This document shows positions 30,832 through 58,142 of a DNA stretch of 64,000 nt, piece by piece (position 1 is the first letter of the stretch; every line of letters starts with the position of its first letter). The stretch spans positions 1,873,623 through 1,937,622 of the forward strand of contig NC_019738.1 of NCBI RefSeq assembly GCF_000317515.1, in the 5' to 3' direction. Source of the DNA: Allocoleopsis franciscana PCC 7113 (GTDB lineage: Bacteria; Cyanobacteriota; Cyanobacteriia; Cyanobacteriales; Coleofasciculaceae). Under the pieces are notes generated by a model. The model was not told the DNA's origin and ran no database searches. It saw only the letters and a program-made list of their open reading frames with translations. A program made the translations under genes and the position numbers.

Positions 30832-33447
30832 TTAAGCTTTCCTCACCCGGCAAGCAAAGCATTTGTAGGCTTGCTGACCGGAAAGATTGTCGTAATATTG
30901 GTCATCTACCAGGGTATTGGCGGCTTCATAGTAGGGAGTTCCGAGTTCTTCAGCCATTTTTTGCATCGGGCCAAACGTATGAGGAACGAAGATGGTATCC
31001 TCACGAATACCCTCCCAAATTTGCGCGGTTCCGGTAATCGAACCTCTAGGACTTTCTACGGCGATCGCATCCCCATTCTTAATCCCCACCCTCTGCGCCA
31101 CTTTAGGATGAATTTGAACTAGCCGAATGCCGTTCATTTGCTTACCCGTGTACGTCCACTGAGTTACGGTGTGAAAATGCACCACACTCGGCCTACCAAT
31201 CATCCCCATCAGTGGATACTCTTGGTGTACTTCCCCAGAGGAAATTCCGCCTAACTTTACCTTTTGGGTTAGTGCTTGCGGATTTATTGGGTTTTGGACA
31301 AATTCTTTGCTGTACTCGATCGTTGGATTTTTGCCCGTTACTTCGGGATGGGTGTAAAAGATGGGTAAGGCTGCGTGTCCGGCAACGGCCAACTTTTTCT
31401 CTAATTCTGAGGTATAGATTTCTACTTTGCCACTGGGGGTCAAAAAGCGCTTGCCCTGGTTTCCAGAAGTCGCTGTAACCCCTCTGTTCGCGTCACTATC
31501 CTGACTCGCTGTATCAGCGTTCCTGATACCAAGCCCTTTCACCACCTGATACCAGGAGGGATGATCTAAGTAGAGGGTGCTGACGCCAGGATGATCCAGA
31601 GAAGGACAAGGCCAGCGCAGGGGTTCCGCCCGCTTTTCCATGCGTTCCTGGGTCATACCTCCCATACCAGGGGTATTCTTGACAAAGGTTGCCCAGAGAT
31701 TGCGGTAGTCTTTCCATTCCAGGGGGAAATTCTCTGTCCAGTAGGCGGGTGGATTTTTCTTGTCCAACTTAGCCATAGCGTGTGCCAAGTCGATCCAAAT
31801 TTCCCAATCGGGTTTGGACTCTCCCACGCGAGGAACCGCCTGCTTTTGCCAGCGAATTGCCCTGTCGTCCCGCCGCATATAGACGGTTTCCATCTCAAAG
31901 CCGCTGCACACGGGTAGGATGATATCGGCGTAATAGGCAGATTCTTCCATAAACAAGCCAGTGTAGACATAGAACTCTAGCTGGCGGTAAGCCTCTTTTA
32001 CCTGACGCGTGTTGGCACTGGAGACAAGGGGATTGCCCGCCGTTGCGATCGCCTTCAAGCGATAAGGCTTCCCAGTTAGGATAGATTCGGCAAAATAGTC
32101 TGGGCCAACGGGTAACGCCACATCTTTCTTGGGAGGATTGCCCTCGATTGCCGGAAGATTTAACCCACCAGGCCAAGTATTGTGCATGAAATTGCAGCCG
32201 CCACCATTTACGCCAATGTTGCCCGTAACAGCAGCTAAAAATGCCAGGGTTCGGTAAGTATCGAAGGCGTTTAGTTGATGGGAGATGCCAGCATTGCAGA
32301 AAATTGCGGCCGGTTTTGTCCTAGCGTACTCCTCAGCAATTTGTCTGATTTTACCTGCTGGAACCCCTGTAATAGTTTCTGCCCATTCCGGCGTGTAGCC
32401 TTGCTTAACCAGGTGAGTTTTCAACTCCTCGAAACCAAGCACCCATTTTTGCACAAAGGCGGCATCGTGCAGGTTCTTGTCCAGAATATGATGCAACATT
32501 GCGAGAACCAAAGCTTGGTCGGTATGCGGCTTCGGTGCAATCCACTCATCTGCCTGTGCACCAGTTGGCGTTAGTCGAGGGTCAATTACTATCAGCTTTG
32601 CCTTAGTTTGGGCGCGACTTCTCAGCAGGTAAGCAAAGGTTACGGGGTGAGTTTCCGCTTGATTGGTACCCAAAAATAAGAAGTATTTCGCTGCACCTAA
32701 ATCTTCTTTCCCTGTTGCGCCATCCTTACCGTAGCCGTTGGTGAAATTCCCCAAGCCAAACGTCCATGCTAAAGCGTTTCCTCCAGCATCGTTACAGACT
32801 GGGCCAACATCTGTGTCGTTAGGACTTCCCAAGAGGGTGAAGAAGCGTCCAATTACCGAACCTGTGCCTCGTGGCATTCTACCAGAGGTTTTGTTTGCGA
32901 TAGCGAAGCGCTGCTGCGAAGCGCAGATCGCGCGTACCTCTCCCGCATCCCGAAGCGCTAAGAATTTCGTAGCGATAGTTCCCAACGCTTCATCCCAAGA
33001 AATCGGCTCAAACTTGGAATCCGGAGAACCCTTCTCGCCGGAAACCCGCTTCATCGGACTTTTCAGGCGGAAGCGATTGTAAACCAGTTGTGTCATCATC
33101 GGTCCTTTGACACAAAAGCCCCCCGATTGAACTGGATCGTCCGGTTCACCCAGAACATCAATAATGCGCCCATCTTTGACATGAACTTTTAGGCGGCACA
33201 GGGAGTTACAGAATTGACAAGCACTATCGATGATTGCATCTGGTTGTAGCGCCCCAGATTTCTGAGTAAAGTCAAATTCTGCACTGGGGGAAGTGGTAGC
33301 GGGATAGTACCCATCTTCCTTTGCCTCAGCCTGTCCTTTGAGCAAATCAGCCCCAGTTACGGCAGCAGCACCAATCGCAGCACCTTTCAAAAAGCCCCGA
33401 CGCGAAACACCCTGACGCGATACTTTCTTTTTATCTTTTGATTTCAT
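30832..33447 (-). CDS. TAT-exported molybdopterin oxidoreductase, DMSO-reductase family catalytic subunit, substrate unknown
   Basis: SRRGFLKGAAIGAAAV twin-arginine signal; CQFCNSLC-X27-CVKG = CX2CX3CX27C [4Fe-4S] motif; 871 aa; no adjacent Fe-S or cytochrome subunit gene. Confidence 0.8.
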   Translation of the reverse strand: MKSKDKKKVSRQGVSRRGFLKGAAIGAAAVTGADLLKGQAEAKEDGYYPATTSPSAEFDFTQKSGALQPDAIIDSACQFCNSLCRLKVHVKDGRIIDVLGEPDDPVQSGGFCVKGPMMTQLVYNRFRLKSPMKRVSGEKGSPDSKFEPISWDEALGTIATKFLALRDAGEVRAICASQQRFAIANKTSGRMPRGTGSVIGRFFTLLGSPNDTDVGPVCNDAGGNALAWTFGLGNFTNGYGKDGATGKEDLGAAKYFLFLGTNQAETHPVTFAYLLRSRAQTKAKLIVIDPRLTPTGAQADEWIAPKPHTDQALVLAMLHHILDKNLHDAAFVQKWVLGFEELKTHLVKQGYTPEWAETITGVPAGKIRQIAEEYARTKPAAIFCNAGISHQLNAFDTYRTLAFLAAVTGNIGVNGGGCNFMHNTWPGGLNLPAIEGNPPKKDVALPVGPDYFAESILTGKPYRLKAIATAGNPLVSSANTRQVKEAYRQLEFYVYTGLFMEESAYYADIILPVCSGFEMETVYMRRDDRAIRWQKQAVPRVGESKPDWEIWIDLAHAMAKLDKKNPPAYWTENFPLEWKDYRNLWATFVKNTPGMGGMTQERMEKRAEPLRWPCPSLDHPGVSTLYLDHPSWYQVVKGLGIRNADTASQDSDANRGVTATSGNQGKRFLTPSGKVEIYTSELEKKLAVAGHAALPIFYTHPEVTGKNPTIEYSKEFVQNPINPQALTQKVKLGGISSGEVHQEYPLMGMIGRPSVVHFHTVTQWTYTGKQMNGIRLVQIHPKVAQRVGIKNGDAIAVESPRGSITGTAQIWEGIREDTIFVPHTFGPMQKMAEELGTPYYEAANTLVDDQYYDNLSGQQAYKCFACRVRKA

Positions 33448-35258: not shown

Positions 35259-36159
35259 AAATTCTCCCCTTGCTGATTCCCTCAGCCGCAACAACCAGTG
35301 CCACAATCAGCGCCATCAGCACCAATCCACTGACAAAGAGTGCTGAACGATGATTACCTGTTGCATAAGCCATTTCTAGGGCAATATTGGCGGTGAGTGT
35401 CCGCATCGGTTCAAATAGACTCTTAGGAGTTTGCACGACATTGCCGCAAACCATCAAAATTGCCATTGTTTCACCAATAGCGCGACCTGTTTCTAGAATC
35501 ACCCCCGTGAACAGTCCCGATTTGGCAGCAGGAAAAACAACCCCCCAAATCATTCCCCACCGGGAGAATCCCAGCGCCGACGCACCCCGCAGGTATTCTG
35601 GAGGAACCTTGGCGAGGCTGGCATCTGCCATGAGTGCGACTGTAGGCAAAATCATAATCGTGAGGATAGCAATCCCAGCTAAGAGACTGGTTCCCGGCGG
35701 TTGGATGCGTCCAATAATCGGCACCAATACGACCAAACCCCAGAATCCGTAAACGACGGAGGGAATTCCCGCCAGTAACTCGATCAGCCGTCGATAGAGT
35801 CCGGCAATCGTGGGAGGAGCATAGTAGTGGCAGAAGACAGCAGATAAAATCCCCAATGGTGTCGCTACCAGCACTGAACCCGCCATTGCCAAGAGGGTGC
35901 CCCAAAGCATGGGGGTGAGGTTGTAGAGTCCTTCTGCGGGATTCCAGGATGCATCAGTGAAGAAGCGCAATAGTCCGACGTTTTGCAAAACTGGCAGCGC
36001 TTCCAACCCTAGAAACACCACAATCAAAATGACGATCGCACCCGCAACAACCGCACATCCCCGCAGCGTCCAGATGAGGATTTGGTCACTTTGATAGGGA
36101 GACAAAATTCTGCTCTTTGACAATGTTCTGTACCTTTGGCGATCGTGCGAAATCAACAA
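35251..36159 (-). CDS. PstC-like ABC permease
   Basis: 6-TM permease with EAA-like loop (RGASALGFSRWGMIW); the annotated start overlaps the pstS-like 3' end, so the real start is probably downstream. Confidence 0.7.
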   Translation of the reverse strand: MLISHDRQRYRTLSKSRILSPYQSDQILIWTLRGCAVVAGAIVILIVVFLGLEALPVLQNVGLLRFFTDASWNPAEGLYNLTPMLWGTLLAMAGSVLVATPLGILSAVFCHYYAPPTIAGLYRRLIELLAGIPSVVYGFWGLVVLVPIIGRIQPPGTSLLAGIAILTIMILPTVALMADASLAKVPPEYLRGASALGFSRWGMIWGVVFPAAKSGLFTGVILETGRAIGETMAILMVCGNVVQTPKSLFEPMRTLTANIALEMAYATGNHRSALFVSGLVLMALIVALVVAAEGISKGRIYD

Positions 36160-36940
36160 ATTCCTTCTCCAACCCTTGAGGTTGAGTTTTCATCACCAAG
36201 TTGAGGGGACGGGAAATAGGAAACGTCTCGTTTTGCACATTTGCTGTAGTAGCGGCTACTCCATTAACAGGCAGTAGCTTGATAGGAACACCGTTGCTAG
36301 AGCCATATTCCGCTGTCCCAATCGACACGTATCCGATCGCGTTGGGATTACCCGCAACTGTCTTAATTCCCTGCTCATTGTCACCAATCACCACTTGAGC
36401 TTTGATGTCACTATTCTTGAGCTTGAAGTAGTTCGTAAACAGTTCTAGCGTGGAGCGTCCCTCAGCTTTATTGACTACAGTGATAGGAGCATCCTTGCCT
36501 CCTACCTGCTTCCAGTTGCCAATCTTGCCTGTGTAAATATCAACAACTTGGCGATCGCTCAGGGACTGTACTGGATTATCTTTGTGAAGGATGATTGTCA
36601 CACCATCACGAGCGATCGTAAACGCTTGAAGGTCTTTTTCGTCCTCCTTGAGAGCGCGAGAAACCATACCAATGTTAGCTAGTCCTTTGCGAGCATCCGT
36701 AATGCCGCGAGAGGAACCACCACTCTGCACATCCACCCGTACAGCGGAATGTTCAGCCTCAAAGCGCTTGCCAATTTCGGAGGCTAGAGGTGCAACTGTG
36801 CTGGAGCCGGTTAATACTAGCTTGCCCTGTAATTTATCACTGGACTGTGTTGATGCTTCTGGGGGCTTAGTACAGGATTGTAACCCCATACAAACCGCCA
36901 AACTCATGGAAAGCGATGCCAGTATTCGGAAGTTTTTCAT
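36086..36940 (-). CDS. PstS-family periplasmic phosphate/oxyanion-binding lipoprotein
   Basis: Lipobox LQSC; LTGSSTVAPLA and SGGSSRGI...GMVSRAL motifs of the short PstS family. Confidence 0.75.
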   Translation of the reverse strand: MKNFRILASLSMSLAVCMGLQSCTKPPEASTQSSDKLQGKLVLTGSSTVAPLASEIGKRFEAEHSAVRVDVQSGGSSRGITDARKGLANIGMVSRALKEDEKDLQAFTIARDGVTIILHKDNPVQSLSDRQVVDIYTGKIGNWKQVGGKDAPITVVNKAEGRSTLELFTNYFKLKNSDIKAQVVIGDNEQGIKTVAGNPNAIGYVSIGTAEYGSSNGVPIKLLPVNGVAATTANVQNETFPISRPLNLVMKTQPQGLEKEFVDFARSPKVQNIVKEQNFVSLSK

Positions 36941-37104: not shown

Positions 37105-37240
37105 AGACGAGTGGTGTCTGGCAGAACCTTCAGCTTGCGGACACAAAACGACTGGGGTAACTCGTTTTTCTGGTTTATGGCTCACTGCCTGCCTGGATTG
37201 AACCGTGATTGATATGAAATTATATTCATATTTTAATTAA
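37105..37240 (-). promoter_or_regulatory. Duplicated arsR promoter/operator plus dead 5' fragment of arsR, upstream of the pstS-like operon
   Basis: ~85% identical to 57012-57140 (arsR start region). Contains the imperfect palindrome TTGATATGAAATTATATTCATAT. The start codon is mutated to ATA in this copy. Confidence 0.55.
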
Positions 37241-38549: not shown

Positions 38550-39014
38550 ATGCCTCAGCGAGACGCGATTCATAACATCATCAAGCAAGCTCTCATCAAG
38601 GAGGGTTGGGAAATCACGGACGATCCCTATGTCATATCGTATGGTGAGCGATTTCTCTTTATCGACTTGGCAGCAAGGTTAGATGCGCTCAATGGTATTG
38701 CAGGACGCTTTATCGGTGCTAGACGCGGTAGCAGTCGAATTGCCGTTGAAATTAAGGAGTTTCGAGGCAACTCGGCAATTGCTGATTTGGAGCAAGCGAT
38801 TGGTCAATATGTTCTTTATCGATTACTCCTCGAACAGGTTGATCGAGAGCGTGAGTTGTATCTCGCTGTTGCAGACACAACCTTTGACGGGATTTTCAGC
38901 GAACCGATTGGTGATTTGGTGATGCGTGAGTTACCAATGAAATTGCTTATTGTAGATGTAGAGGCGGTAGAGGTGAAGCGATGGATACCAGCACGAGAGA
39001 GCGGGACATTGTAA
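38550..39014 (+). CDS. xisH: XisH family protein (PD-(D/E)xK-like)
   Basis: MPQRDAIHNIIKQALIKEGWEITDDPY...ERFLFIDLAA...IAVEIK. Confidence 0.8.
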   Translation: MPQRDAIHNIIKQALIKEGWEITDDPYVISYGERFLFIDLAARLDALNGIAGRFIGARRGSSRIAVEIKEFRGNSAIADLEQAIGQYVLYRLLLEQVDRERELYLAVADTTFDGIFSEPIGDLVMRELPMKLLIVDVEAVEVKRWIPARESGTL

Positions 39015-39304
39015 AGCAGGTGATTCAACGATACGCCCAGTTCAAACCTTCTCATGGCCATATTCGACTCGACACGGTATTTGACGACACGCAAAACCGC
39101 TATGCACTAATGCAAGTGGGTTGGGATAGAGGACGACGGGTTAGGGGAAATTTGATTTATGTGACTTTGAGTGAGGGTAAGGTTTGGGTGGAATATGACG
39201 GGATGGAACAGGGAATTACTAAAGATCTAATTGCCGCAGGTATCCCTCCAGAGCGAATTGTTCTTGCATTTCTCCCTGAAGAGCAAACTGCTGCAACTGC
39301 CTAA
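38981..39304 (+). CDS. xisI: XisI family protein
   Basis: Overlaps xisH 3' end; ...RYALMQVGWD...GKVWVEYDG. Confidence 0.8.
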   Translation: MDTSTRERDIVKQVIQRYAQFKPSHGHIRLDTVFDDTQNRYALMQVGWDRGRRVRGNLIYVTLSEGKVWVEYDGMEQGITKDLIAAGIPPERIVLAFLPEEQTAATA

Positions 39305-39324
39305 ACTCAAATTATGATGAGCTA

Positions 39325-39377
39325 GCGATCGCACCTGTACATATATACAGTCAAAACCCACCTACACGAACGAGCGC
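39325..39377 (+). repeat. Left copy of ~50-bp imperfect direct repeat flanking the nuclease scrap island
   Basis: GATCGCACCTGTACATATATACAGTCAAAACCCACCTACACGAACGAGCGC vs the copy at 41536-41584, about 80% identical. Confidence 0.45.
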
Positions 39378-39459
39378 TCTGTTCGTTCATTCTTACATTC
39401 AAGTAGCAGATAAAAGCTATCATACCATCTAATATAAACAAAAAGGTAATGGCACCTTA

Positions 39460-40599
39460 TCAAACACGAATAGGGCTTCCAGCAATGCACCAATTCATAA
39501 CAACTTGTCCAATCTTTTCCCAATCAGAATGCATGGATTTATCAACTATTTTTGCAATCTCATGAGGATTTTTATGTTTAAGATATTCAACGGTATTGCT
39601 GAGCGTATTTTCTCCAAATCCCAGTGATATTTTACATTTACATTCTCCACTATTATTACTGCATTGCCAGTTAGCTTGACACCAATCATCTATAGAACTT
39701 GATATATTGGGAATTAAAGAAGTTTTTACTTCCCAAAAAGATTTAATTTTAGGATTACTTGCATTAATAATTTCCTTCATCCGAGTTCCTTTTTTTATAT
39801 CTAAAAAACGCCTAATCTCGAATGCCGTACTACTAATATTTTCAAAGATTTTTAAAACTTTGAGTCTTTCCTGGTTTCTTGAACACAGTTCAGATAAAAT
39901 TGAGTTAGGTATTAAGTTTTCAATTTCACGGCAATCAAGAATAAAAGTTTGCGTATTTATACAATTTGAATCGCTCTGAGTTTGGATGAGAGATGCTGTG
40001 GAGCCAAAGTTTCCATCAGGAGCAATTTTATCGCTATCTACAATACAAAGACAAAAACGTTTTTTTAATTCTTGAATATTAATATATTCAAGAGAAATTG
40101 TATTGCCGCCACCTCCTCTACCTTCGCATACTATTTTGATATTAATGTTGTTCCATACAAGATAAATTTTTGCTATGGTTTCGTATAGAATAGTATCATG
40201 AATATTTTCACACAGAAGTATGGTTTTCTGTACTAACTCTGAATCATTAAAAAAACGTGGAGCAACTTTAATAATTTGCTTACCTGAATTAGACACCACT
40301 TCTGGTTCATAACAAGAATTAACAAGTTCAATATATCTGGTTACCGCAGAAAGGTAAGATTCTAATTGTGTAGATTCTAATTGTGTAGATTGGTTAAATA
40401 ACTTGTTGTAAGTATTCCTGGCAAATTGAGATAAACGACGGCATTGAGCAATCTTTTTGAAAATTTCTCTCTTAGCCATTACTAAAGGCTTACCTTCCCG
40501 ACGAGCAGATGCAAGATTTTCTAAAGCCAAAACAGTTTCATCGTCCCAACTATTTTCATCTCCATTATCTACTACAGAGCTATTGATAAAAATCAGCAT
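39460..40599 (-). CDS. DUF4435/Toprim-like (AriB/OLD-type) putative nuclease, AT-rich
   Basis: KIVCEGRGGG (E), CIVDSDK (DxD), DCREIENLIP (RExEN) in Toprim order; Cys-rich C-terminus; GC content far below surroundings. Confidence 0.45.
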   Translation of the reverse strand: MLIFINSSVVDNGDENSWDDETVLALENLASARREGKPLVMAKREIFKKIAQCRRLSQFARNTYNKLFNQSTQLESTQLESYLSAVTRYIELVNSCYEPEVVSNSGKQIIKVAPRFFNDSELVQKTILLCENIHDTILYETIAKIYLVWNNINIKIVCEGRGGGGNTISLEYINIQELKKRFCLCIVDSDKIAPDGNFGSTASLIQTQSDSNCINTQTFILDCREIENLIPNSILSELCSRNQERLKVLKIFENISSTAFEIRRFLDIKKGTRMKEIINASNPKIKSFWEVKTSLIPNISSSIDDWCQANWQCSNNSGECKCKISLGFGENTLSNTVEYLKHKNPHEIAKIVDKSMHSDWEKIGQVVMNWCIAGSPIRV

Positions 40600-41235
40600 T
40601 TATACAAGTTCCATCTCGAAAAAACCTAGCGGCCAGTTTAAAAGATACCCATCTGAATTGAATTGAGAGTTTCTTATTGTTACTCCTCCTAGTTTATCGG
40701 ATGGTTCAAATAAAACAATGTTGATTTCATCAGGAGATATTTTACCTTCAGAAACTAATTGTCCTAGGCGATTTACCAATATTTCACTATGGGTTTCAAT
40801 CATTACCTGAATCCGTTGACTTCCCTGCTCTGCAATGGCATAGGCGAGAATTTGGGTATTTTGCACATCTACCACCCAATACTCAGCCACACCCAACTCT
40901 TCATACAGTGCCCGTTTAGTTCCTATATCATCCAGCAACGACGTTTTAGCAACCTCAATAACTAAATTTGGTGCTGGATTCTGATCAAGATTAACAATCC
41001 CCGTACTTGATGGGATAGCCTGAACGCGATCTGCGCTTCGCAGCAGCGCTTCGTTATCGCCAACGTAATAAGACACATCCGGCTGACATTCCCTAACACC
41101 TGGTTTACGAAGAGTAGTGGTGTCTAAACCTCTTAACGGAATACCTTTAATTGCTGCAAACAAATTAACTGCCAGAATAATTACAACATGATCTTGTCCA
41201 TGATCAAAACTAACTGGCAACATCTCAATCCTCAT
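40600..41235 (-). pseudogene. Chimeric ORF: nearly complete Uma2 (DUF820) fused in frame to the C-terminal ~65 aa of an ABC/AAA_15-type ATPase
   Basis: PDVSYY...NLVIEVAKTS...EYWVVDV Uma2 core, then VMIETHSEILVNRL (H-loop THS motif). GC content drops sharply at ~40830. Confidence 0.5.
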
Positions 41236-41535
41236 GTGACCCTTGTAGTAGTAGCCCTTTGCCTTCTCATAAATTGGGTCTTCAATCGTGCGGACATACT
41301 CCTCTCATGAGGCTGTTAACCATATATCTGTGCGGGGTCTGGTTTGTAACTCACTCATGGTCTATATCGGTTGGTAGTTTGGCTTGTAGTTGGCTCATAA
41401 CCACCCTTTTAGCTACCGCTCACCCACATCTTAACGTAGGGGCGATCGCCCTTGGCGCTACGCTGCGCGTAATCGCACACTCTGAATGTGGAGGATGAAC
41501 AGTGAGACTGATAGCGAAGCGCTGCCGCCAAAGGC

Positions 41536-41584
41536 AGATCGCACCCATACCTACATACAGCCAAAACCAACTTACGCGATCGCT
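41536..41584 (+). repeat. Right copy of ~50-bp imperfect direct repeat
   Basis: AGATCGCACCCATACCTACATACAGCCAAAACCAACTTACGCGATCGC. Confidence 0.45.
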
Positions 41585-42333
41585 CCCTCAAAATAAATTC
41601 TAAAGGGTTCAGCGAGAATCCCTAATATTTGATTCAGCTGAGTAATGAAATATTCAGTCAAATCGATTTTGACAACCCGATCTTCTAACCTTATAAATTT
41701 CCAGTTAGTCCCTGTTGAAACTGCACCATACACCACTTGCTGTTCCAGCCCCTTACGAGCATTAAATATTTGAGCAGCAACCATTTGAGCTACACATTGT
41801 CCTAACCCAATGCGGATATCATTATCTTTCGCTTCAACCAAAGTTAAGACAGGCGCAGTCACTAGCGATTGATTGCTTGATGCACTTAAGATAAAATCAC
41901 AGGCTCCCGTTAAACCTTTTGATTCATCAACATTAAACGTATTACCCGAAAAATAACCGATTTTATTCTGAAATATACGTCTTACTTCCAATAAAATCGG
42001 AGTAATAATTAATTCAGATCGAGCTTTTTCTGTACTAATGCTTGCCGCTAAATCTAACGTTTCATCCAGCATTTCCTTAAGCCGTTGAGAAGGTTCAATG
42101 GGTGTCACCTGGCTAAAGAAATGAGGAATATCCTCGACTGTTAAATCGAGGGTAGAAACGGCTTGGTCAATCGTTTTGAAATCACTGTATGACATATTCT
42201 CAGAGTCAGCAGCACTTACAACGCTACCATAACCATTCTGCCAAACCGACATCTTGCACCATGCCCTCAGAATGGAAAATGAAGCTCTGCTCACAAGAAT
42301 TAAACCAGTAATTTTATAAATTGAAGACGCCAA
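41572..42333 (-). CDS. Hypothetical PD-(D/E)xK-like protein
   Basis: CDFIL ... LTLVEAKDND (D...EAK) motif; start codon uncertain. Confidence 0.35.
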   Translation of the reverse strand: MASSIYKITGLILVSRASFSILRAWCKMSVWQNGYGSVVSAADSENMSYSDFKTIDQAVSTLDLTVEDIPHFFSQVTPIEPSQRLKEMLDETLDLAASISTEKARSELIITPILLEVRRIFQNKIGYFSGNTFNVDESKGLTGACDFILSASSNQSLVTAPVLTLVEAKDNDIRIGLGQCVAQMVAAQIFNARKGLEQQVVYGAVSTGTNWKFIRLEDRVVKIDLTEYFITQLNQILGILAEPFRIYFEGAIA

Positions 42334-42410: not shown

Positions 42411-42815
42411 CTATCTTTGAGCAGCGATCGCCAGTTTAGCGCCCTTAACTCGACGCAAACGATCCATCACACTCACCACCCGACCATGATCGACTTTTTC
42501 ATCTGCATTGACAATCACCAGTGATTCAGAATTCGTCTCTACCAAAGAGCGTACCGAGTCTTCAAGAGCCTCCAACTGAATCGGTTTACGGTTGAGAGCC
42601 AACACTCCATCTGGCTGAATCGTCACCGTAATTTTGGTACTCGGCTGAGATTTTGCAGTTGAGGCACTGGGTAAATTCACGGGTAACCCTTCCGAACGGG
42701 TTAAATACAGTGTTGAAATAATGAAAAATGCCAGTATCGAGAAAATCACATCAATCATCGGCACAATGTTGATTTCTCCTGGCCTGTCTACCTCATCGGG
42801 AAGCCGCATAGACAT
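42411..42815 (-). CDS. exbD: Biopolymer transport protein ExbD/TolR
   Basis: 134 aa, N-terminal TM, INIVPMIDVIF motif. Confidence 0.8.
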   Translation of the reverse strand: MSMRLPDEVDRPGEINIVPMIDVIFSILAFFIISTLYLTRSEGLPVNLPSASTAKSQPSTKITVTIQPDGVLALNRKPIQLEALEDSVRSLVETNSESLVIVNADEKVDHGRVVSVMDRLRRVKGAKLAIAAQR

Positions 42816-43443
42816 CTCTCCCTTGTTCGTATTGACGACGATAAAGCAGTTCTAACTGACCACCGTACTCCTGAATTAACGCTAGCTGTCGCTGATAAAA
42901 AGAACGGAACATATTGGCGAAAAACAGGGTGAAGATTGCCACAACCAACCCCATCACCGTTGAGACGAGAGCCTCACTAATTCCTCCAGTAACTCCCGTC
43001 GTGCGGCTACCCCCAACATCACCAATCTTCAAGGAAGAAAAAGCCGTCATCAAGCCCAAAATCGTGCCTAAAAGACCCAATAATGGCGAAATTCCAACAA
43101 TCGTATCAAAAACGCTGTTAAAACGCTTTAATGTTGGCAGTTCAGCTTGTGCCGCACTTTCTAAGGCAATGCGAAATTCCTCAGGATTGGGGCGGTCTAG
43201 TTCTAAGGCTTCCAAGAAAATCTTGGCAATGGGCAAGTCAGCATTCTGCTGTAGGTAGTTAATCGCATTTCTTGGGTTCTGTTGGTACATCTTCAGCGCA
43301 TCTCTGACAACTCGACGCTGCCGACGATTCACCCGAAACCAAAACAGCAATCGCTCAGCAATCAGGGCAACAGACGCCAGGGAAAAGACCAAAAGCGGCC
43401 AAGCGACGATTCCACCCGCCTTAAAAAAATTAACAATTGACAT
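42793..43443 (-). CDS. exbB: MotA/TolQ/ExbB proton channel
   Basis: 3 TM helices, GLLGTILGL... motif. Confidence 0.8.
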   Translation of the reverse strand: MSIVNFFKAGGIVAWPLLVFSLASVALIAERLLFWFRVNRRQRRVVRDALKMYQQNPRNAINYLQQNADLPIAKIFLEALELDRPNPEEFRIALESAAQAELPTLKRFNSVFDTIVGISPLLGLLGTILGLMTAFSSLKIGDVGGSRTTGVTGGISEALVSTVMGLVVAIFTLFFANMFRSFYQRQLALIQEYGGQLELLYRRQYEQGRDVYAASR

Positions 43444-46794: not shown

Positions 46795-48441
46795 ATGAGC
46801 ATTTCAAACTTCTGCATTGAGCAACGGGAGAGAGAACAACAGGCTCTCAAAAAGTTTCTCGTCTATAGCCTCGCTGGTTCAGCCGTGTTTCACGTAGCAG
46901 CGGCTTTCGGCGTAAGCTGGCTGTGGCAGAGCCAGCCGGAACTTGCCGATGACCCCATTGAAGTCATATTGGTCGAGAACCCAGACACCGAAGAAAAACC
47001 GCTAACCGATACTCCTAAGCCAGAGCCAAAGCTAGTTAAGCCCCCAACGCCACAGCAACCGCTTAAGGCAGAGGCTCCCAAGCCACCGATCCCAGAACCG
47101 ACAATCCCCACGGTTTCTCTAAAACCACAGGCTCAACCCGCGCCCATCGTTCCTGCGGCACCTGAAAAGTCAGTGGTTGAACCCATCCCTCCAATTCCGC
47201 CAGTGCCTCAAAGAGCACAGACTCAACCCGCGCCTCCTGCCCCTGTTGCACCACCCCAAGCACCGAGAGAACCTGAACCCATTGCTTCACCTCCTCCTTC
47301 ACCGATCGCCACTCAGGAACCGGTAACTCCACCAGCCAATAGCCCAACCCAACCACTTCAGGATGACTCGGCAACAAAGCAACCTCAAGAACGTTTGAGC
47401 GAGCCTATTAACCCGGAATCAGATCTCAACCCTATACCACCGGGTTCCGTGGCAGACAATCGCTTGGCACCCCCACCTCTGAGGAATGCCCCCGAACCGC
47501 TGTCAACAGATTCAAATCCCGACAGGCAAATTAGAACACGTTTGGGTGAGAGTTCTTCTGCACCGACAGCACCACCAAAGGAAGACGATTCTAACCCTGG
47601 TTCCGTATCACCCGGCGCTGTAGCAGCCAATCCTTCAGCCCCCCCACGACCGACAGGCAGTTCTCAGGCGCTTCAAAGTTCTTCCCCCGATTCCCGAAAA
47701 TTTAGACAGAGTTTCGGGAGTGAGAGTTCTCCCAGTACCACCTCGCCCGGAGGAGGCGACTCCATCGGCAACCCCATATCACCAGGGGCAGTAGCCGCGA
47801 ATTCCTCAGCACCCCCACGACCCAGTTCAGGCAACAACCGACAAGGAACAGAGAATCCAGGAGGGAACTCAGAGGGTTCTCCAACTGGCTCTGGAAGAGA
47901 CGGATTGCAGTGCATTAGGAAGTGCACACCTGAATCTCCATCCTCACTCAATGGGGAAGAGGGTAGGGTCGGTGTTCAAATTACAGTAGATGGAAGCGGC
48001 AATGTCGTTAATGCCACAATCGCAGAAAACGGCAAGAGCACACAAATGGATCAAGCTGCCATAGCTGCCGCCAATCAAATGAAATTTAAGGCACCCGGAC
48101 GCCGTGTTATCGCTCAACTCAACATTAACTTTGCAAGAGAGGAAGGCACTGAGTTCGAGCGCCAAGCCCGCGAACGTCAAGCCCAGAACGAACGCGAACG
48201 CCAGCAGAGAGAGCAGGAACGTCAAGCACAGCAGCAACAAGAACGCCAAGAACGGGAACGCCAAGCGCAGCTAGAGCGCGAACAGAAAGGGCAACAGGAA
48301 CGGGAAAACCAACAACAGCTAGAGCGCGAACGTCAGGAACAACAGGAGCGCGATCGCCAAGAACGGGAGCGTCAAGAGCAACAAGAACGCGATCGCCAAC
48401 AACAGCAGGAAAACGTACCACTGACTCCACCTAGTCAGTAA
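46795..48441 (+). CDS. tonB: TonB-family energy transducer with long Pro-rich spacer and C-terminal RQ/ER repeat tail
   Basis: N-terminal TM, about 250 aa Pro-rich, TonB_C-like block (EGRVGVQITVDGSGNV...AAIAAANQMKFKAP), then QERERQ repeats. Confidence 0.65.
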   Translation: MSISNFCIEQREREQQALKKFLVYSLAGSAVFHVAAAFGVSWLWQSQPELADDPIEVILVENPDTEEKPLTDTPKPEPKLVKPPTPQQPLKAEAPKPPIPEPTIPTVSLKPQAQPAPIVPAAPEKSVVEPIPPIPPVPQRAQTQPAPPAPVAPPQAPREPEPIASPPPSPIATQEPVTPPANSPTQPLQDDSATKQPQERLSEPINPESDLNPIPPGSVADNRLAPPPLRNAPEPLSTDSNPDRQIRTRLGESSSAPTAPPKEDDSNPGSVSPGAVAANPSAPPRPTGSSQALQSSSPDSRKFRQSFGSESSPSTTSPGGGDSIGNPISPGAVAANSSAPPRPSSGNNRQGTENPGGNSEGSPTGSGRDGLQCIRKCTPESPSSLNGEEGRVGVQITVDGSGNVVNATIAENGKSTQMDQAAIAAANQMKFKAPGRRVIAQLNINFAREEGTEFERQARERQAQNERERQQREQERQAQQQQERQERERQAQLEREQKGQQERENQQQLERERQEQQERDRQERERQEQQERDRQQQQENVPLTPPSQ

Positions 48442-48478
48442 ACCACATCAAAAAGGAGTTGAGAGGTTTCTTCAGCCT

Positions 48479-49132
48479 ATGTTTTGTACAATCAGGCGAT
48501 TGGGAATAACACTATTGATTGCTTCTAGCTTGAATATTGTCAGCTCAAGTCGTCATCCACTGCTGGCAAGAGCGATTGCGCGAAGTTCAACGCAAAAGGC
48601 GATTGCATTTGCTCATCCACAGAAGCACCTCTCAACTGTAACTGCCCAAGTGCCAACAGACTCTGCTCCGACTCGTCCCCAGAACTCACCCAATTCAAAT
48701 CCAACGGCTGGATTGAGGTGTATTAGCGGGTGTGCCCCCCAATATCCAGCGGCACTAGCTGGTGAAGAAGGGAGTGCACGAGTCAGAGTCGTGGTTGATC
48801 GCAACGGCAATGTAGTTGAGGCACAAGTCCTTGGCGGAAGCGCAGTTACCGAGTTTTTGGTAGCTCCAAATGGCAATGTAGTTCCAAAAGATGGGGAAAC
48901 GACCATCTATAGCAAACTGGCTGAAGCAGCTCTTGCCAGTGCAAAACAGATGAAGTTTACACCATTGGCAAACAAAGAGCAGGCGGCAGTAATTGTGAAT
49001 ATTAAATATACGATCGCAGGCACCGATTTTGATCGCCAATTCCGCCAACGTCAGGAACGAGAGCGCCAACAACAACAAGAACGAGAGCGACAAAAACAGC
49101 AAAAAACAGAACCAATCCCTGCAACCGAATAG
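48479..49132 (+). CDS. TonB C-terminal-domain protein (short paralogue)
   Basis: APQYPAALAGEEGSARVRVVVDRNGNV...ASAKQMKFTP; ERERQ tail; N-terminus resembles that of the following MORN protein. Confidence 0.55.
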   Translation: MFCTIRRLGITLLIASSLNIVSSSRHPLLARAIARSSTQKAIAFAHPQKHLSTVTAQVPTDSAPTRPQNSPNSNPTAGLRCISGCAPQYPAALAGEEGSARVRVVVDRNGNVVEAQVLGGSAVTEFLVAPNGNVVPKDGETTIYSKLAEAALASAKQMKFTPLANKEQAAVIVNIKYTIAGTDFDRQFRQRQERERQQQQERERQKQQKTEPIPATE

Positions 49133-49210
49133 TTAAGTTAATACCTTTTCAAGGTTCTTTCTCTATGCTTCTTACAATTCATTGATTTAGAATCTGGCTG
49201 ATTAATACTG

Positions 49211-50296
49211 TTGTTCACAAGGAGGTTTTTTAGATTCATGCTTCGGACAATTGGGCGATTCGGAATAACGCTTTTAATGGCTGCAAGTTTCAATATTGCT
49301 AGCTCACTCAGCAATCCCCAAGAAGCGATCGCAGCTGTCGTTACATTACCCGATGGGGGTCGTTGCGAAGGGGAAATGAGCAATGGTGTCCTCAATGGTA
49401 AAGTCACTTGCAAATATGCCAATGGAGACAGCTACGAAGGCAATTTCACCAACGGCAAGAAGCAAGGTCAAGGTATCTACACTTTTGCCAAGGGAGGTCG
49501 GTACGAAGGAGAGTTCAGCGAGGATAAGCCCAATGGTAAAGGAGTTCGAGCCTATCCAGATGGCGATCGCTATGAAGGAGAATTCAAGGACGGTCAACCT
49601 AACGGAACGGGAATCTACATTCGAGCCGATGGGGGTCGCTACGAGGGACAGTTTACCGATGGCAATCCCAGTGGCAAAGGAACGTTTACCTATGCCAAGG
49701 GCGATCGCTGTTCTGGAGACATTACCGATGGTCAACTCAACGGTAAAGGAGTCTGTGAATACGCTAACAAAAACCGTTATGAGGGAGAACTCAAGAACGG
49801 TCAGCCCAACGGTCAAGGAATCTACACATTTGCTGAGGGGGGTCGCTACCAAGGAACGTTTAGCAACGGTCAATTCGATGGCAAGGGAGTTCGGGAATAC
49901 GCCAATAAGAACCGCTACGAAGGGGAATTTAAAAACGGCAAACCCAGCGGTCAAGGAACCTATACCTTTGCGGATGGGGGTAGTTACAAAGGGGCGTTCA
50001 GCGATGGCAAATTCAGCGGCGCTGGAGTTTACACCTTTGCCAACGGTAACCGTTATGAAGGTCAGTTCACTGACGGTCAGTTTAATGGTACCGGAGTCTA
50101 CACCTTTGCCAATGGCGATCGCTGTGAGGGACAGTTCAGTGCAGGTCAGTTAAACGGTAAAGGTGCCTGCAAATATGCCAATGGGGACAGCTTTGATGGA
50201 GAATTCCGCAATGGTGAGAAGGACAAGGGTGCTTATATCTTCGCAGACGGAACCCGTGTGGAAGGAACTTGGAAAGATGGCAAATTCCAAAATTAG
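49211..50296 (+). CDS. MORN-repeat protein
   Basis: About 13 tandem YEG.F.(D/N)G...G.G repeats. Confidence 0.8.
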   Translation: MFTRRFFRFMLRTIGRFGITLLMAASFNIASSLSNPQEAIAAVVTLPDGGRCEGEMSNGVLNGKVTCKYANGDSYEGNFTNGKKQGQGIYTFAKGGRYEGEFSEDKPNGKGVRAYPDGDRYEGEFKDGQPNGTGIYIRADGGRYEGQFTDGNPSGKGTFTYAKGDRCSGDITDGQLNGKGVCEYANKNRYEGELKNGQPNGQGIYTFAEGGRYQGTFSNGQFDGKGVREYANKNRYEGEFKNGKPSGQGTYTFADGGSYKGAFSDGKFSGAGVYTFANGNRYEGQFTDGQFNGTGVYTFANGDRCEGQFSAGQLNGKGACKYANGDSFDGEFRNGEKDKGAYIFADGTRVEGTWKDGKFQN

Positions 50297-53244: not shown

Positions 53245-53330
53245 ATGTTGGAGTGACACCCTGGGCGACGCTGGCTGATTTGTCGTTATGTTGGAGTGAC
53301 ACCCTAGGCAACGCTGGCTGATTGGTCGTT
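53245..53330. repeat. Tandem 43-nt direct repeat x2 between convergent genes
   Basis: ATGTTGGAGTGACACCCT(G/A)GGC(G/A)ACGCTGGCTGATT(T/G)GTCGTT duplicated head-to-tail. Confidence 0.6.
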
Positions 53331-56778: not shown

Positions 56779-57084
56779 TCAGTTAAAGGAAAGCAGGCAA
56801 CAGCCAAGATCAATTGCCCTACCAACCTTTTCCTGCCAGACGGCGGGAGTCAAACTGTAAAGCACCGCCTTGCCATCTCGTGTCGCCTCAACAAACCCCT
56901 CTTCCCGCAGAATTTTGAGGTGGTGCGATAGCAAACTTTGCTCCACATCTAGAACAGCGTTCAACTCCCCAACATGCTTTGGCCCTTCCATCAGGATTTC
57001 CAAAACGGCTAGACGAGTGGTGTCTGCTAAAACTTTCAGCTTGCGGACGCAAAACGACTGAGGTAATTCGCTTTTTGGGTTCAT
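56779..57084 (-). CDS. arsR: ArsR/SmtB-family metalloregulator
   Basis: wHTH LADTTRLAVLEIL...HVGEL...LSHHLKILREEGFV; Cys near N-terminus and C-terminal CC pair. Confidence 0.8.
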   Translation of the reverse strand: MNPKSELPQSFCVRKLKVLADTTRLAVLEILMEGPKHVGELNAVLDVEQSLLSHHLKILREEGFVEATRDGKAVLYSLTPAVWQEKVGRAIDLGCCLLSFN

Positions 57085-57110
57085 AGCTGCCTGCCTGGAT
57101 TGAACCGCGA

Positions 57111-57136
57111 TTGATATAAATATAATTTCATATCAA
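57111..57136. promoter_or_regulatory. Putative ArsR operator (imperfect 26-bp palindrome)
   Basis: TTGATATAAATATAATTTCATATCAA 27 nt upstream of the arsR start; copied upstream of the pst-like operon. Confidence 0.45.
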
Positions 57137-57173: not shown

Positions 57174-58142
57174 TTAACAGCAACCGCCACCCACGTAGTG
57201 CCACGTTGAATCTGTAATGATCACATCCTCAGGTCGTGACTTCCCTAGCTTTGCGGCTGTCTTATCGCAGACAACGGCGGGTACACCCCGTTGGAGAACA
57301 TGTCCTGCTGAGTCATCAAAAAATTCTTCGCTACCCTTGTAAATCGCTGTTTTTCCCGTGAAAATGCAGGCACCATCTTCAGGAATCGGGACTTTGAAGG
57401 CAACACAATCCAGACTTTCTAACAGCAAATCTTCTTCCAAATAGTAAGTGTGACGATCTAAGAGTCGGTAAGGACGACGGGCGCGAATTTCCACCTGACC
57501 AAATCCAGCATCAATAATCCGTTGAGTATACTGCTCATAAGTCAGAGCACCAGATAGACACATCGCCCTCAATCGTTCATCTTGTTGCAAATGTACTGGG
57601 ATAGGACGAGTGGCAATGGGGTCGCTCATTTGCAGGCGTCCGCCTGGTTTTAATACCCGGTAGGCTTCTTTCAAAGCTTTGGTGAGGTCATCCGGCTCAA
57701 AGATATTAAATAAACAATTTTGTGCCACGACATCCACAGAGGCATCTGGCACAGGCAGGGCGAAGGCGTCTCCATCCCGAATTTCGACAAAACTGGGGTT
57801 AAACCAGGGATTTTCTTGAGCAGCCAGTTCTAGGTTACGGGTAGCTGCTTCCCGCATGGCGCTGACCGGTTCAACAGCAATAACGCTACCAGAACGGCGG
57901 GAAAAATAGGCGAATTGCAACGCTTCCAAGCCGCCACCGACACCGACATACAGTACAGTTGGCTCATTGGTGAGTTCAGCCGGATGAACCGTTGTGCCGC
58001 AACCATAGTTCATTTGCTGCATGGGTTCAGGAATGCTCAGTCCTGGCAGTCTCAGGGGGCTACTTTGGACGCAACATAAACCCACTTGGGGCGTTTGGGC
58101 AACTTCACTGTAAAATTCGGCAGTTGTTTTAAGATAAGTCAT
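57174..58142 (-). CDS. arsM: Arsenite S-adenosylmethionine methyltransferase
   Basis: YSEVAQ...GLCC...YGCG block as in AS3MT/ArsM, SAM-MTase motifs VLYVGVGGG / LKPGGRL, C-terminal Cys pair. Confidence 0.85.
   Translation of the reverse strand: MTYLKTTAEFYSEVAQTPQVGLCCVQSSPLRLPGLSIPEPMQQMNYGCGTTVHPAELTNEPTVLYVGVGGGLEALQFAYFSRRSGSVIAVEPVSAMREAATRNLELAAQENPWFNPSFVEIRDGDAFALPVPDASVDVVAQNCLFNIFEPDDLTKALKEAYRVLKPGGRLQMSDPIATRPIPVHLQQDERLRAMCLSGALTYEQYTQRIIDAGFGQVEIRARRPYRLLDRHTYYLEEDLLLESLDCVAFKVPIPEDGACIFTGKTAIYKGSEEFFDDSAGHVLQRGVPAVVCDKTAAKLGKSRPEDVIITDSTWHYVGGGCC

What the first reader, a model, noticed from the sequence alone, without database searches (positions are those of the whole stretch)
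38550..42333. AT-rich nuclease scrap island: XisH/XisI, orphan AriB/OLD-like Toprim gene and a Uma2::ATPase-C-terminus chimera, bracketed by ~50-bp direct repeats
The region 39460-40830 has much lower GC than its flanks. The ORF 40600-41235 reads through a nearly complete Uma2 gene straight into the H-loop/C-terminal end of an ABC (AAA_15/DUF3696-type) ATPase (IETHSEILVNRL). The next gene carries Toprim-order motifs (CEG, DSD, REIEN) like the DUF4435 AriB partner of PARIS and OLD nucleases. This looks like a PARIS/OLD-like two-gene defence cassette whose ATPase sensor was truncated by recombination with a Uma2 gene, leaving an apparently intact effector nuclease. Imperfect direct repeats at 39325-39377 and 41536-41584 may mark the boundaries of the event.
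Basis: partly seen in the sequence, partly recalled or inferred. Interest (0 to 1): 0.6.

Follow-up and report, generated by a model that had tools for sequence, protein, structure and literature searches.

The report
Decayed ATPase–Toprim nuclease defence cassette
This stretch of the Allocoleopsis franciscana PCC 7113 chromosome holds the wreck of a mobile two-gene candidate anti-phage cassette: a 3-kb deletion removed almost all of its ATPase gene and welded the last ~68 codons onto a dead Uma2 gene, leaving the Toprim nuclease partner intact but orphaned. It is ordinary genome decay, not a new system.

Summary
The window is from Allocoleopsis franciscana PCC 7113.

- **Partner gene:** the 379-aa gene (39460-40599, minus strand) belongs to a large family with no Pfam model (2,275 clusters at 50% identity). 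In 16 other loci a 509-541-aa AAA_15/AAA_21 ABC ATPase directly abuts it. PADLOC lists this pair as candidate system PDC-M55.
- **Deletion:** against a syntenic metagenome contig (L002, 95% identical), the window lacks 3,050 bp. The junction is at 40804/40805 with 2-nt microhomology. It fuses a Uma2 gene in frame to ATPase codons ~466-535.
- **Uma2 part:** it is itself dead, with a TGA at codon 18, a 27-nt net repeat insertion and a lost C-terminus.
- **Uniqueness:** the chimera is found only in this strain.
- **Direct repeats:** the ~50-bp repeats are real, but they are copies of a dispersed HIP1-bounded element and do not mark the deletion boundaries.

Interest is low to moderate.

The parts
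38550..39014 (+). xisH, full-length (154 aa; AFZ17515.1)
   Evidence: Pfam XisH, E 3.7e-46, profile positions 1-133 of 134. Identified by exact look-up.
38981..39304 (+). xisI, full-length (107 aa), convergent with the cassette
   Evidence: Pfam XisI, E 3.3e-32, profile positions 1-105 of 110. A 47-aa XisI remnant sits at the same place next to the cassette in L001.
39327..39379 (.). DR-B: a copy of a dispersed ~46-nt HIP1-bounded element in the 3' flank of the cassette
   Evidence: It is conserved at the same position in L002/L003 and partly in L004. Family copies occur in L010 and L007.
39460..40599 (-). Orphan partner gene (379 aa; AFZ17517.1 / WP_015181673.1). It has an N-terminal Rossmann-like domain (residues 1-~120), an OLD-type Toprim core (~125-235; E131, GG164-165, D188-S-D190, E227-N228) and a helical C-terminal region.
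40357..40386 (-). Perfect 15-nt tandem duplication inside the partner gene. It adds 5 aa (STQLE-STQLE) in a variable linker.
   Evidence: family D14. Orthologues are 374 aa and lack it.
40600..40805 (-). Remnant of the ABC ATPase gene: codons ~466-535 of a ~535-codon gene, covering the H-loop and the DUF3696-like tail. The stop still abuts the partner's start (TAAATG).
   Evidence: tblastn of the L001 ATPase hits only residues 466-535 in the window, at 84% identity. Model hits from PADLOC and Pfam. The abutment is as in intact loci.
40804..40805 (-). Deletion junction with a TA microhomology. 3,050 bp are missing relative to L002 (1412-4461).
   Evidence: blastn. Three-way sequence comparison of the junction.
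40806..41358 (-). Uma2 pseudogene, orthologue of L002 Uma2 no. 2. It starts at ATG 41358, has an in-frame TGA at 41307-41305 (W18 to stop) and has lost its C-terminal ~35 codons.
   Evidence: tblastn alignment, 84% identity with '*' at W18. Pfam Uma2, E 1.5e-20.
41026..41058 (-). 33-nt dispersed element inserted in frame in the Uma2 pseudogene (net +27 nt, 9 aa)
   Evidence: The 9-aa gap appears in the alignment to L002 Uma2 no. 2.
41365..41446 (-). Conserved ~80-bp element holding the start and first 13 codons of a second Uma2 gene (L002 Uma2 no. 1). The rest of that gene is deleted (670 bp relative to L002).
41510..41542 (+). Second local copy of the 33-nt dispersed element
41537..41589 (.). 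DR-A: second copy of the dispersed HIP1-bounded element. It overlaps the last codons of the PD-DExK gene and is absent at this site in L002.
41572..42333 (-). PD-(D/E)xK-type nuclease-like gene. The ORF is 253 aa from a TTG start, and the real start is probably further downstream.
   Evidence: PADLOC PD_DExK (Cas-associated) model, E 1e-49, residues 101-244. There is no Pfam hit. Its 3' end is syntenic with L002.

Best explanation
The locus is a decaying copy of a horizontally mobile, AT-rich two-gene cassette.

**The intact cassette (seen in relatives).** It encodes a ~535-aa OLD-type ABC ATPase (AAA_15/AAA_21 with a DUF3696-like tail). The next gene follows with no gap and encodes a ~374-aa effector with an N-terminal Rossmann-like domain and an OLD-type Toprim nuclease core. 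PADLOC lists the pair as candidate system PDC-M55.

By analogy with PARIS and with the predicted Menshen NsnB-NsnC complex, the ATPase oligomer probably holds the nuclease through its C-terminal tail. It would sense an infection cue and then release or activate the nuclease. This mechanism is inferred, not shown.

**What happened in PCC 7113 (shown).**
- An illegitimate recombination with 2-nt microhomology deleted 3,050 bp. It removed the end of a Uma2 gene, a third Uma2 gene, a DUF433/PIN-like pair and ATPase codons 1-~465, which include Walker A and Walker B.
- The join happens to be in frame, which produces the 211-aa chimeric ORF.
- That ORF is a by-product and not a gene. Its Uma2 part already carries a premature TGA and a repeat insertion, and another upstream Uma2 gene was deleted as well.
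- The nuclease gene is still intact, apart from a 5-aa in-frame duplication and an H38P change at a conserved site.

**Likely functional state (inferred).** Without its ATPase the nuclease is most likely inert for defence and only weakly toxic or non-toxic, as reported for AriB without AriA. It would then be a recent orphan on its way to pseudogenisation.
For: **Two-gene architecture.** The ATPase abuts the partner in L001, L004/5, L019, L020, L021/22 and L023 and in all nine IMG/VR loci.

**Family assignment.**
- Intact ATPases hit NsnB (5e-46), PDC-M55A (2e-42 to 3e-45) and AriA (1.7e-28), plus Pfam AAA_15 and AAA_21.
- 41 of 45 partners hit PDC-M55B.

**Deletion.**
- Window 41364-40804 equals L002 878-1411, and window 40805-39326 equals L002 4462-5926 at 94.9% identity.
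- The junction sequences share only TA.
- Only ATPase residues 466-535 remain, and there is no other copy in the window.

**Uma2 decay.** W18 is replaced by a stop, there is a 9-aa insertion that equals the dispersed 33-nt element, and the C-terminus is replaced. The first 13 codons of a second Uma2 gene remain.

**Uniqueness of the chimera.** Of 970 hits, only a 100%-identical sequence spans the junction. The junction 20-mer has no true match in metagenomes.

**Cassette composition.** The cassette is low in GC in every host, 0.27-0.34.

**Partner still constrained.** dN/dS is 0.31-0.33. Window-specific changes are 9 non-synonymous to 8 synonymous.

**Menshen analogy.** NsnB's DUF3696 tails are predicted to clamp the N-terminal domain of NsnC (PMC12065111).
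Against: - No experiment shows that PDC-M55 is a defence system. No paper in the library mentions it.
- The mechanism of the intact system rests on analogy only.
- The partner shows no clear relaxation of constraint (dN/dS ~0.33). An ATPase-independent role therefore cannot be excluded, although the counts are small (17 lineage-specific codon changes).
- The closest relative (L002/L003) also has a dead ATPase (one in-frame stop) next to an intact partner. This could mean that the partner is retained for a reason.
- The direction of some events (loss in the window versus gain in L002) is inferred by parsimony from one close relative.
Confidence: 0.85

Rival explanations
1. The orphan Toprim protein is still functional on its own, as a stand-alone nuclease or toxin or in a domesticated role. 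In that case the ATPase is dispensable in this lineage.
For: - The ORF is intact and keeps all 11 invariant family residues.
- dN/dS is 0.31-0.33, and the window-lineage changes are 9 non-synonymous to 8 synonymous, not the roughly 3:1 expected under neutrality.
- The sister locus L002/L003 also keeps an intact partner beside an ATPase with a nonsense codon.
Against: - In 16 other loci the partner is never found without a full-length ATPase.
- In PARIS the Toprim subunit alone gives no defence, and its toxicity needs prior association with the ATPase (PMC11464382).
- The window copy carries H38P at a site that is His in 37 of 43 relatives, plus a 5-aa duplication.
- The substitution counts are too small to separate recent orphaning from continued selection.
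Confidence: 0.15
2. The 211-aa Uma2::ATPase-tail ORF is a working fusion protein. For example, it could be a minimal tether or antitoxin that still binds the nuclease through the DUF3696-like tail.
For: - The fusion is in frame and the TAAATG stop/start abutment with the partner is kept.
- The retained ~68 residues are the part that, in Menshen models, docks the effector's N-terminal domain (PMC12065111).
Against: - The fusion is unique to this strain.
- The Uma2 reading frame is broken upstream by a TGA, so the ORF starts at an internal Met.
- The ORF also carries a repeat insertion.
- The junction has the look of random illegitimate recombination, with 2-nt microhomology, and an in-frame outcome has a 1-in-3 chance.
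- The ABC dimer that positions two tails is gone.
Confidence: 0.05
3. The two ~50-bp direct repeats are the attachment or target-site duplications of an inserted island, so they bound the recombination event.
For: They bracket the low-GC genes and the Uma2 remnant. They are the only two copies in 64 kb, and none is expected by chance.
Against: - The deletion junction is internal, at 40804/40805.
- L002 has the island at the same left junction without DR-A.
- DR-B travels with the cassette's 3' flank in other genomic contexts.
- Copies at 90-91% identity sit in unrelated intergenic sites: once in an Allocoleopsis MAG and three times within 8 kb of another HIP1-rich contig.
Confidence: 0.07

Closest known systems
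PADLOC candidate system PDC-M55 (PDC-M55A ATPase + PDC-M55B)
   Same: These are the best-scoring models for both genes. Intact ATPases score 2e-42 to 3e-45 against PDC-M55A. 41 of 45 partners hit PDC-M55B, including the window copy at 2e-9. The gene order is the same.
   Different: The window has only the last ~68 codons of the A gene, so the system is incomplete here. PDC-M55 is only a computational candidate, and no paper in the searched library mentions it.
PARIS (AriA ABC ATPase + AriB Toprim nuclease; 'class 4 OLD')
   Different: - The partner is not DUF4435 by sequence.
- Its Toprim Glu is at residue 131, behind an extra ~120-aa N-terminal domain. In AriB the catalytic Glu is E26.
- The ATPase scores better against NsnB and PDC-M55A than against AriA.
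- The trigger and the target are unknown.
Menshen (NsnA-NsnB-NsnC)
   Same: The ATPase is NsnB-like (PADLOC NsnB 5e-46; AAA_15 plus a DUF3696-like tail). The effector has the NsnC-style layout of an N-terminal Rossmann-like domain followed by a C-terminal nuclease, and Toprim-fold nucleases occur among NsnC effectors (PMC12065111).
   Different: - No DUF262/NsnA gene was called at any of the eight loci with gene calls.
- The Toprim core is closest to OLD nucleases. It was not compared directly with the DUF4276/RloB type reported for NsnC effectors.
OLD-family nucleases, classes 1-3 (P2 Old, GajA, retron Ec67/Eco8 effectors)
   Different: In classes 1-3 the ATPase and Toprim are one polypeptide. 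Here they are separate genes. No UvrD-like helicase or retron reverse-transcriptase gene was called next to the cassette.

Membership tests
Toprim superfamily / OLD-type nuclease domain | Conserved acidic Glu on the loop after strand β1 | tested here: met
   E131 is invariant in 45 sequences and directly follows strand 126-129 in the model.
Toprim superfamily / OLD-type nuclease domain | DxD motif after strand β3 | tested here: met
   D188-S189-D190 are invariant and directly follow strand 183-187.
Toprim superfamily / OLD-type nuclease domain | Three-layer α/β fold superposable on solved OLD Toprim domains | tested here: met
Toprim superfamily / OLD-type nuclease domain | Metal-dependent nuclease activity | not testable with these tools
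   This needs biochemistry with E131A and D188A/D190A controls.
OLD nucleases, classes 1-3 | ABC ATPase and Toprim fused in one polypeptide | tested here: not met
   The two are separate abutting genes in all 16 intact loci.
PARIS (AriA/AriB) | AriB is a DUF4435 (PF14491) protein | tested here: not met
   None of 45 family members hits PF14491 at E<=1. PADLOC AriB is hit by 2 of 45, best E 1.7e-4. A family-profile search of PDB at E<=10 does not find AriB.
PARIS (AriA/AriB) | A full-length AriA-type ABC ATPase encoded next to the nuclease | tested here: not met
   In the window only residues ~466-535 remain. Intact relatives do have an ATPase that hits AriA at 1.7e-28, but it scores higher against NsnB and PDC-M55A.
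PARIS (AriA/AriB) | Activation by anti-restriction proteins (Ocr) and cleavage of tRNA-Lys | not testable with these tools
   This is an experimental property (PMC11464382).
Menshen (NsnABC) | NsnA (ParB-DUF262) gene upstream of the ATPase | tested here: not met
   No DUF262 gene was called in any of the eight neighbourhoods inspected.
Menshen (NsnABC) | NsnB-type ATPase with a C-terminal DUF3696 helix | tested here: inconclusive
   PADLOC NsnB scores 5e-46 on the intact relatives and 1.6e-11 on the window remnant, model positions 256-333 of 345. Pfam DUF3696 is below its cut-off (16.2 bits against 22).
Menshen (NsnABC) | Effector with an N-terminal inactive-PIN (inPIN) domain | tested here: inconclusive
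PADLOC PDC-M55 | Adjacent genes matching both the PDC-M55A and PDC-M55B models | tested here: not met
   In the window the B gene matches (2e-9) but A is a ~68-residue fragment inside a chimera. The feature is met in the intact relatives.
Uma2 (PF05685) | Match to the Pfam model above the gathering score | tested here: met
   73.8 bits against a cut-off of 27, profile positions 23-151 of 172.
Uma2 (PF05685) | Uninterrupted full-length reading frame | tested here: not met
   There is a TGA at codon 18, a 9-codon repeat insertion, and the C-terminal ~35 codons are replaced.
XisH / XisI | Full-length matches to PF08814 and PF08869 as an adjacent pair | tested here: met
   E 3.7e-46 (positions 1-133 of 134) and E 3.3e-32 (positions 1-105 of 110).

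The most novel reading that the evidence does not exclude
The wreck may not be inert. The deletion kept exactly the ATPase's H-loop-to-DUF3696 tail, which is the piece predicted in Menshen to clamp the effector's N-terminal domain, and it kept the stop/start abutment with the nuclease gene. The Uma2::tail product, or the orphan nuclease itself, could therefore still work as a minimal tether-plus-nuclease pair or as an ATPase-independent nuclease. The sister lineage (L002/L003) has also lost ATPase function while keeping the nuclease intact. That would then point to repeated selection for the nuclease alone.
Probability: 0.06. Interest if true: 0.6.

Novelty: new member of a known kind. Interest (0 to 1): 0.3.

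Why it matters
The main value is as a cleanly reconstructed example of how defence cassettes decay. The events are a microhomology deletion, an accidental in-frame chimera, small dispersed repeats inserting into coding sequence, and an effector nuclease that outlives its regulator.

It also warns annotators that the 211-aa 'Uma2 family' ORF is a fusion artefact.

A side result may be more useful. The partner belongs to a large family (2,275 clusters at 50% identity) of split OLD-ABC ATPase plus Toprim cassettes. This family is untested and has no Pfam model. It sits between PARIS and Menshen, and it occurs in cyanobacteria, Bacteroidota and on viral contigs. Intact copies, for example in Kamptonema animale CS-326 and Planktothrix agardhii, are reasonable candidates for experimental defence tests.

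Tried and rejected
- **Sequence route to DUF4435/AriB.** I tried Pfam on 45 members, NCBIfam, PHROGs and a family-profile search of PDB. All were negative, so the kinship rests on fold and on weak PADLOC AriB hits only.
- **Direct repeats as event or island boundaries.** Rejected.
- **Exact DR-core scan of representative genomes.** Most hits were chance singletons in unrelated phyla, and the source genome itself was not hit. Only L010 and L007 were informative.
- **Junction 20-mer scan of metagenomes.** The single hit was a chance match.
- **Exact look-up of the window's partner gene in the contig index.** It is not on record, so I could not see how the public record calls the chimera.
- **Library profile search.** It lists only the best 150 of 2,275 hits, so I could not reach the weak tail to look for a transitive link to DUF4435.
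- **Structured RNA or tRNA as an integration site.** There are no Rfam hits in the whole window and no tRNA in 30-50 kb.
- **Promoter/terminator scan.** Counts are at or below shuffled expectation, so it is not informative.


Full report
**Source and layout.** An exact protein look-up places the window in the 7.47-Mb chromosome of Allocoleopsis franciscana (formerly Microcoleus sp.) PCC 7113. The 379-aa protein is AFZ17517.1 / WP_015181673.1, annotated 'hypothetical protein', and XisH is AFZ17515.1. The region lies between a PstS-like gene (36086-36940) and exbB/exbD (42411-43443). From low to high coordinates it contains:
- xisH (38550-39014, +) and xisI (38981-39304, +), both full-length by Pfam
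- a 379-aa ORF (39460-40599, -)
- a 211-aa ORF (40600-41235, -)
- a 253-aa ORF (41572-42333, -) that matches PADLOC's Cas-associated PD_DExK model at E 1e-49

**Checking the observation.**
- GC drops to 0.29-0.36 across about 39350-40850, against 0.45-0.50 outside. By feature, the partner gene is 0.325, the ATPase tail 0.335, the Uma2 part 0.445 and the whole window 0.469.
- The 211-aa ORF is a two-part chimera. Uma2 (Pfam E 1.5e-20) covers residues 3-144. ATPase C-terminal models cover residues ~138-207: PADLOC NsnB 1.6e-11, PDC-M55A 1.3e-9 and HEC-03B 2.6e-7, plus Pfam DUF3696 at 0.013, which is below threshold.
- The direct repeat is at 39327-39379 / 41537-41589, 53 nt at 77% identity. Its core occurs only there in the window, and none of 100 shuffles reached two matches.

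**What the 379-aa gene is.**
- It has 126 homologues at E<=1e-3 in the word-indexed database, mostly from filamentous cyanobacteria and a few from Bacteroidota and Desulfobacteraceae. Nearly all are 365-390 aa and none has a precomputed Pfam domain.
- A profile search of the 1.84-billion-protein representative library finds 2,275 clusters at E<=1e-3 and 1,259 at E<=1e-30.
- In a 45-sequence alignment the invariant residues are E131, G164, G165, D188, S189, D190, T201, E227, N228, I230 and P231. The window copy has all of them.
- The AlphaFold2 model built on that alignment is confident (pLDDT 93.0, pTM 0.92).
- E131 follows strand 126-129 and D188-x-D190 follows strand 183-187. That is the Toprim arrangement of a Glu after β1 and a DxD after β3, as summarised in PMC12065111.
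- The Toprim claim is therefore supported by fold and motifs.
- It is not supported at the level of the DUF4435/AriB sequence family. None of 45 members hits PF14491, only 2 of 45 touch PADLOC's AriB model (best E 1.7e-4), and 41 of 45 hit PDC-M55B. A profile search of PDB sequences finds nothing relevant, and Foldseek alone is not significant.

**The normal partner gene.**
- In every other locus I inspected, a 509-541-aa AAA_15/AAA_21 ATPase lies immediately upstream, with its stop abutting or overlapping the partner's start. These loci are:
  - L001 (a 7.25-Mb JGI genome)
  - L004/L005 (Kamptonema animale CS-326)
  - L019 (Anabaena sphaerica)
  - L020 (Chryseobacterium)
  - L021/L022 (Planktothrix agardhii)
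  - L023 (Microcoleus sp. MOSTC5)

- Nine IMG/VR viral contigs carrying distant partners (25-29% identity) all have a full-length ATPase upstream as well.
- The intact ATPases score best against PADLOC NsnB (5e-46) and PDC-M55A (2e-42 to 3e-45), then HEC-03B, AriA (1.7e-28) and, weakly, GajA.
- No DUF262/NsnA gene, UvrD-like helicase or reverse transcriptase was called next to the pair.
- The cassette is low in GC (0.27-0.34) in hosts whose flanks range from 0.35 to 0.46. The AT-richness is therefore a property of the mobile cassette, not of this locus.

**Reconstructing the damage.** A metagenome contig (L002, with L003 as an independent copy) carries a partner 94% identical to the window's and is syntenic on the left side. 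Its order is: end of the PD-DExK gene, three Uma2 genes, a DUF433 gene, a 44-aa PIN-like fragment, the ATPase, the partner. The blastn matches are:

| Window | L002 | Identity | Content |
|---|---|---|---|
| 41676-41573 | 4-107 | 94% | end of the PD-DExK gene |
| 41446-41365 | 125-207 | 89% | ~80-bp element |
| 41364-40804 | 878-1411 | 85.6% | Uma2 no. 2 |
| 40805-39326 | 4462-5926 | 94.9% | ATPase tail and partner |

- The window therefore lacks L002 1412-4461, which is 3,050 bp.
- At the junction the window reads ...CGGATTCAGGTA|ATGATTGAAACCC.... L002 reads ...CGCATTCAGGTA|TCTCAGG in Uma2 no. 2 and ...CTACGTTTA|ATGATTGAAACCC in the ATPase. The two parents share only TA. This is the signature of illegitimate recombination, and the in-frame outcome is a 1-in-3 accident.
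- Only ATPase residues 466-535 survive (84% identical to L001), and there is no second copy in the window.
- In the intact L001 sequence printed, the Walker A (GQNSSGKST) and Walker B (IEQPELHLHP) motifs lie in the deleted part. These two motif assignments are my own reading of that sequence. The remnant starts just before the H-loop His (MIETHSE).

**The Uma2 half is also dead.** Compared with L002's Uma2 no. 2 (84% identity), the window copy has three defects:
- W18 is a TGA (41307-41305), so the 211-aa ORF starts at an internal Met.
- Nine extra codons coincide with a 33-nt element. That element also occurs at 32899 and 41510.
- The last ~35 codons are replaced by the ATPase tail.

The first 13 codons of L002's Uma2 no. 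1 also survive at 41404-41366, directly joined to the region 6 nt upstream of Uma2 no. 2. This indicates a second deletion of 670 bp.

**Is the chimera a family?** No. Of 970 database hits, only P0124 spans the junction. It is 207 aa and 100% identical, so it is the same sequence with a different start. All the others cover about 68% of the query, which is the Uma2 part. The junction 20-mer has one metagenome match, which shares nothing else with the window.

**State of the orphan nuclease gene.**
- It differs from its orthologues by a perfect 15-nt tandem duplication (40357-40386; five extra residues in a variable linker).
- Pairwise dN/dS is 0.33 against L002 and 0.31 against L001, close to the 0.36 between L001 and L002.
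- With L001 and L004 as outgroups, the window lineage has 9 non-synonymous and 8 synonymous codon changes. One is H38P, at a site that is His in 37 of 43 relatives.
- This fits a recent loss of the ATPase. It cannot exclude continued selection.
- The L002/L003 ATPase also has a single in-frame stop near codon 139. In L023 it is the partner that is truncated (270 aa) beside an intact ATPase. Either gene of the pair can therefore decay.

**The direct repeats.** They are real but do not bound the event.
- The deletion junction is internal to the bracketed segment.
- DR-B is part of the cassette's 3' flank in L002/L003 and half of it is present in L004. DR-A is missing at the orthologous site in L002.
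- Copies at 90-91% identity occur once in an Allocoleopsis MAG (L010) and three times within 8 kb of another HIP1-rich contig (L007).
- The consensus is a ~46-nt element bounded by HIP1 (GCGATCGC) sites, so this is a dispersed short repeat.

**Mechanism.**
- Shown: the architecture, the fold, the motifs and the deletion history.
- Inferred for the intact cassette: the ATPase oligomer holds the nuclease through its C-terminal tail and releases or activates it on sensing infection. This follows PARIS, where AriA holds AriB and releases it on trigger binding (PMC11464382). It also follows the AlphaFold 3 models of Menshen, in which paired NsnB DUF3696 tails clamp the N-terminal domain of NsnC (PMC12065111).
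- Inferred for this window: the ATPase cannot bind nucleotide, so the system cannot work. [quoted passage not shown]

**Comparison and novelty.**
- The nearest catalogued entity is PADLOC's candidate PDC-M55. No paper in the searched library mentions it.
- Functionally it sits between PARIS (split OLD, 'class 4'; PMC10568477) and Menshen without NsnA.
- The window holds a broken member of that kind, so I rate it 'new member of a known kind' with low-to-moderate interest.
- The intact family is a better experimental target than this locus.

Noticed in passing
window 39327-39379 and 41537-41589; L002 5870-5926; L010 1733-1777; L007 6172-6218, 7113-7155, 4306-4336: A ~46-nt dispersed element bounded by HIP1 sites (GCGATCGC-AYCRRTRCYTACATACAGCCAAAACCAACCTAC-GCGATCGC). 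It recurs in intergenic DNA of several cyanobacterial genomes or MAGs, with up to three copies in 8 kb. Its function is unknown.
   Followed up: partly
window 32899-32931 (+), 41026-41058 (-), 41510-41542 (+): A 33-nt GC-rich element (GATAGCGAAGCGCTGCTGCGAAGCGCAGATCGC) is present three times in the window. One copy sits in frame inside the Uma2 pseudogene and adds 9 codons. The element is absent from all fetched loci.
   Followed up: partly
window 41365-41446; L001 6269-6349; L004 4227-4301; L002 125-207: A conserved ~80-bp element contains a Uma2 start codon and its first ~8-13 codons. It sits just upstream of the ATPase even in the 'intact' loci L001 and L004. This suggests that Uma2 genes once preceded the cassette there too and were deleted independently.
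   Followed up: partly
L002 3048-4667 and L003 (ATPase); L023 5001-5813 (partner): Decay of the pair recurs. The L002/L003 ATPase has one in-frame stop near codon 139 beside an intact partner. Microcoleus sp. MOSTC5 (L023) has an intact ATPase beside a truncated 270-aa partner.
   Followed up: partly
window 39460-40599 (-), residues ~303-320: A Cys cluster (WC-x4-W-x-C ... C-x-C) in the C-terminal helical region of the partner is conserved in cyanobacterial members and absent in the Bacteroidota-type members. It may be a metal-binding site.
   Followed up: no
window 37105-37231 and 57011-57133: A ~130-nt repeat, 84-87% identical. One copy overlaps the 5' end and upstream region of an ArsR-type regulator gene (56779-57084, -), next to a 322-aa ORF (57174-58142, -) that I read by eye, untested, as an ArsM-like methyltransferase. 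The other copy lies upstream of the PstS-like gene (36086-36940, -). There is no Rfam match and no unusual fold stability (z -1.4).
   Followed up: partly
window 3686-4441; 47100-50200; 53245-53330: Other tandem repeats lie elsewhere in the window. There are five overlapping 252-nt copies spaced 126 nt apart, several repeat sets including copies spaced at multiples of 69 nt, and a 43-nt tandem duplication. They are unrelated to this finding.
   Followed up: no
L024-L032 (IMG/VR contigs): Distant versions of the whole two-gene cassette (partner 25-29% identical, ATPase 30-36% identical) occur on nine viral or prophage contigs. This is consistent with phage-borne spread.
   Followed up: partly
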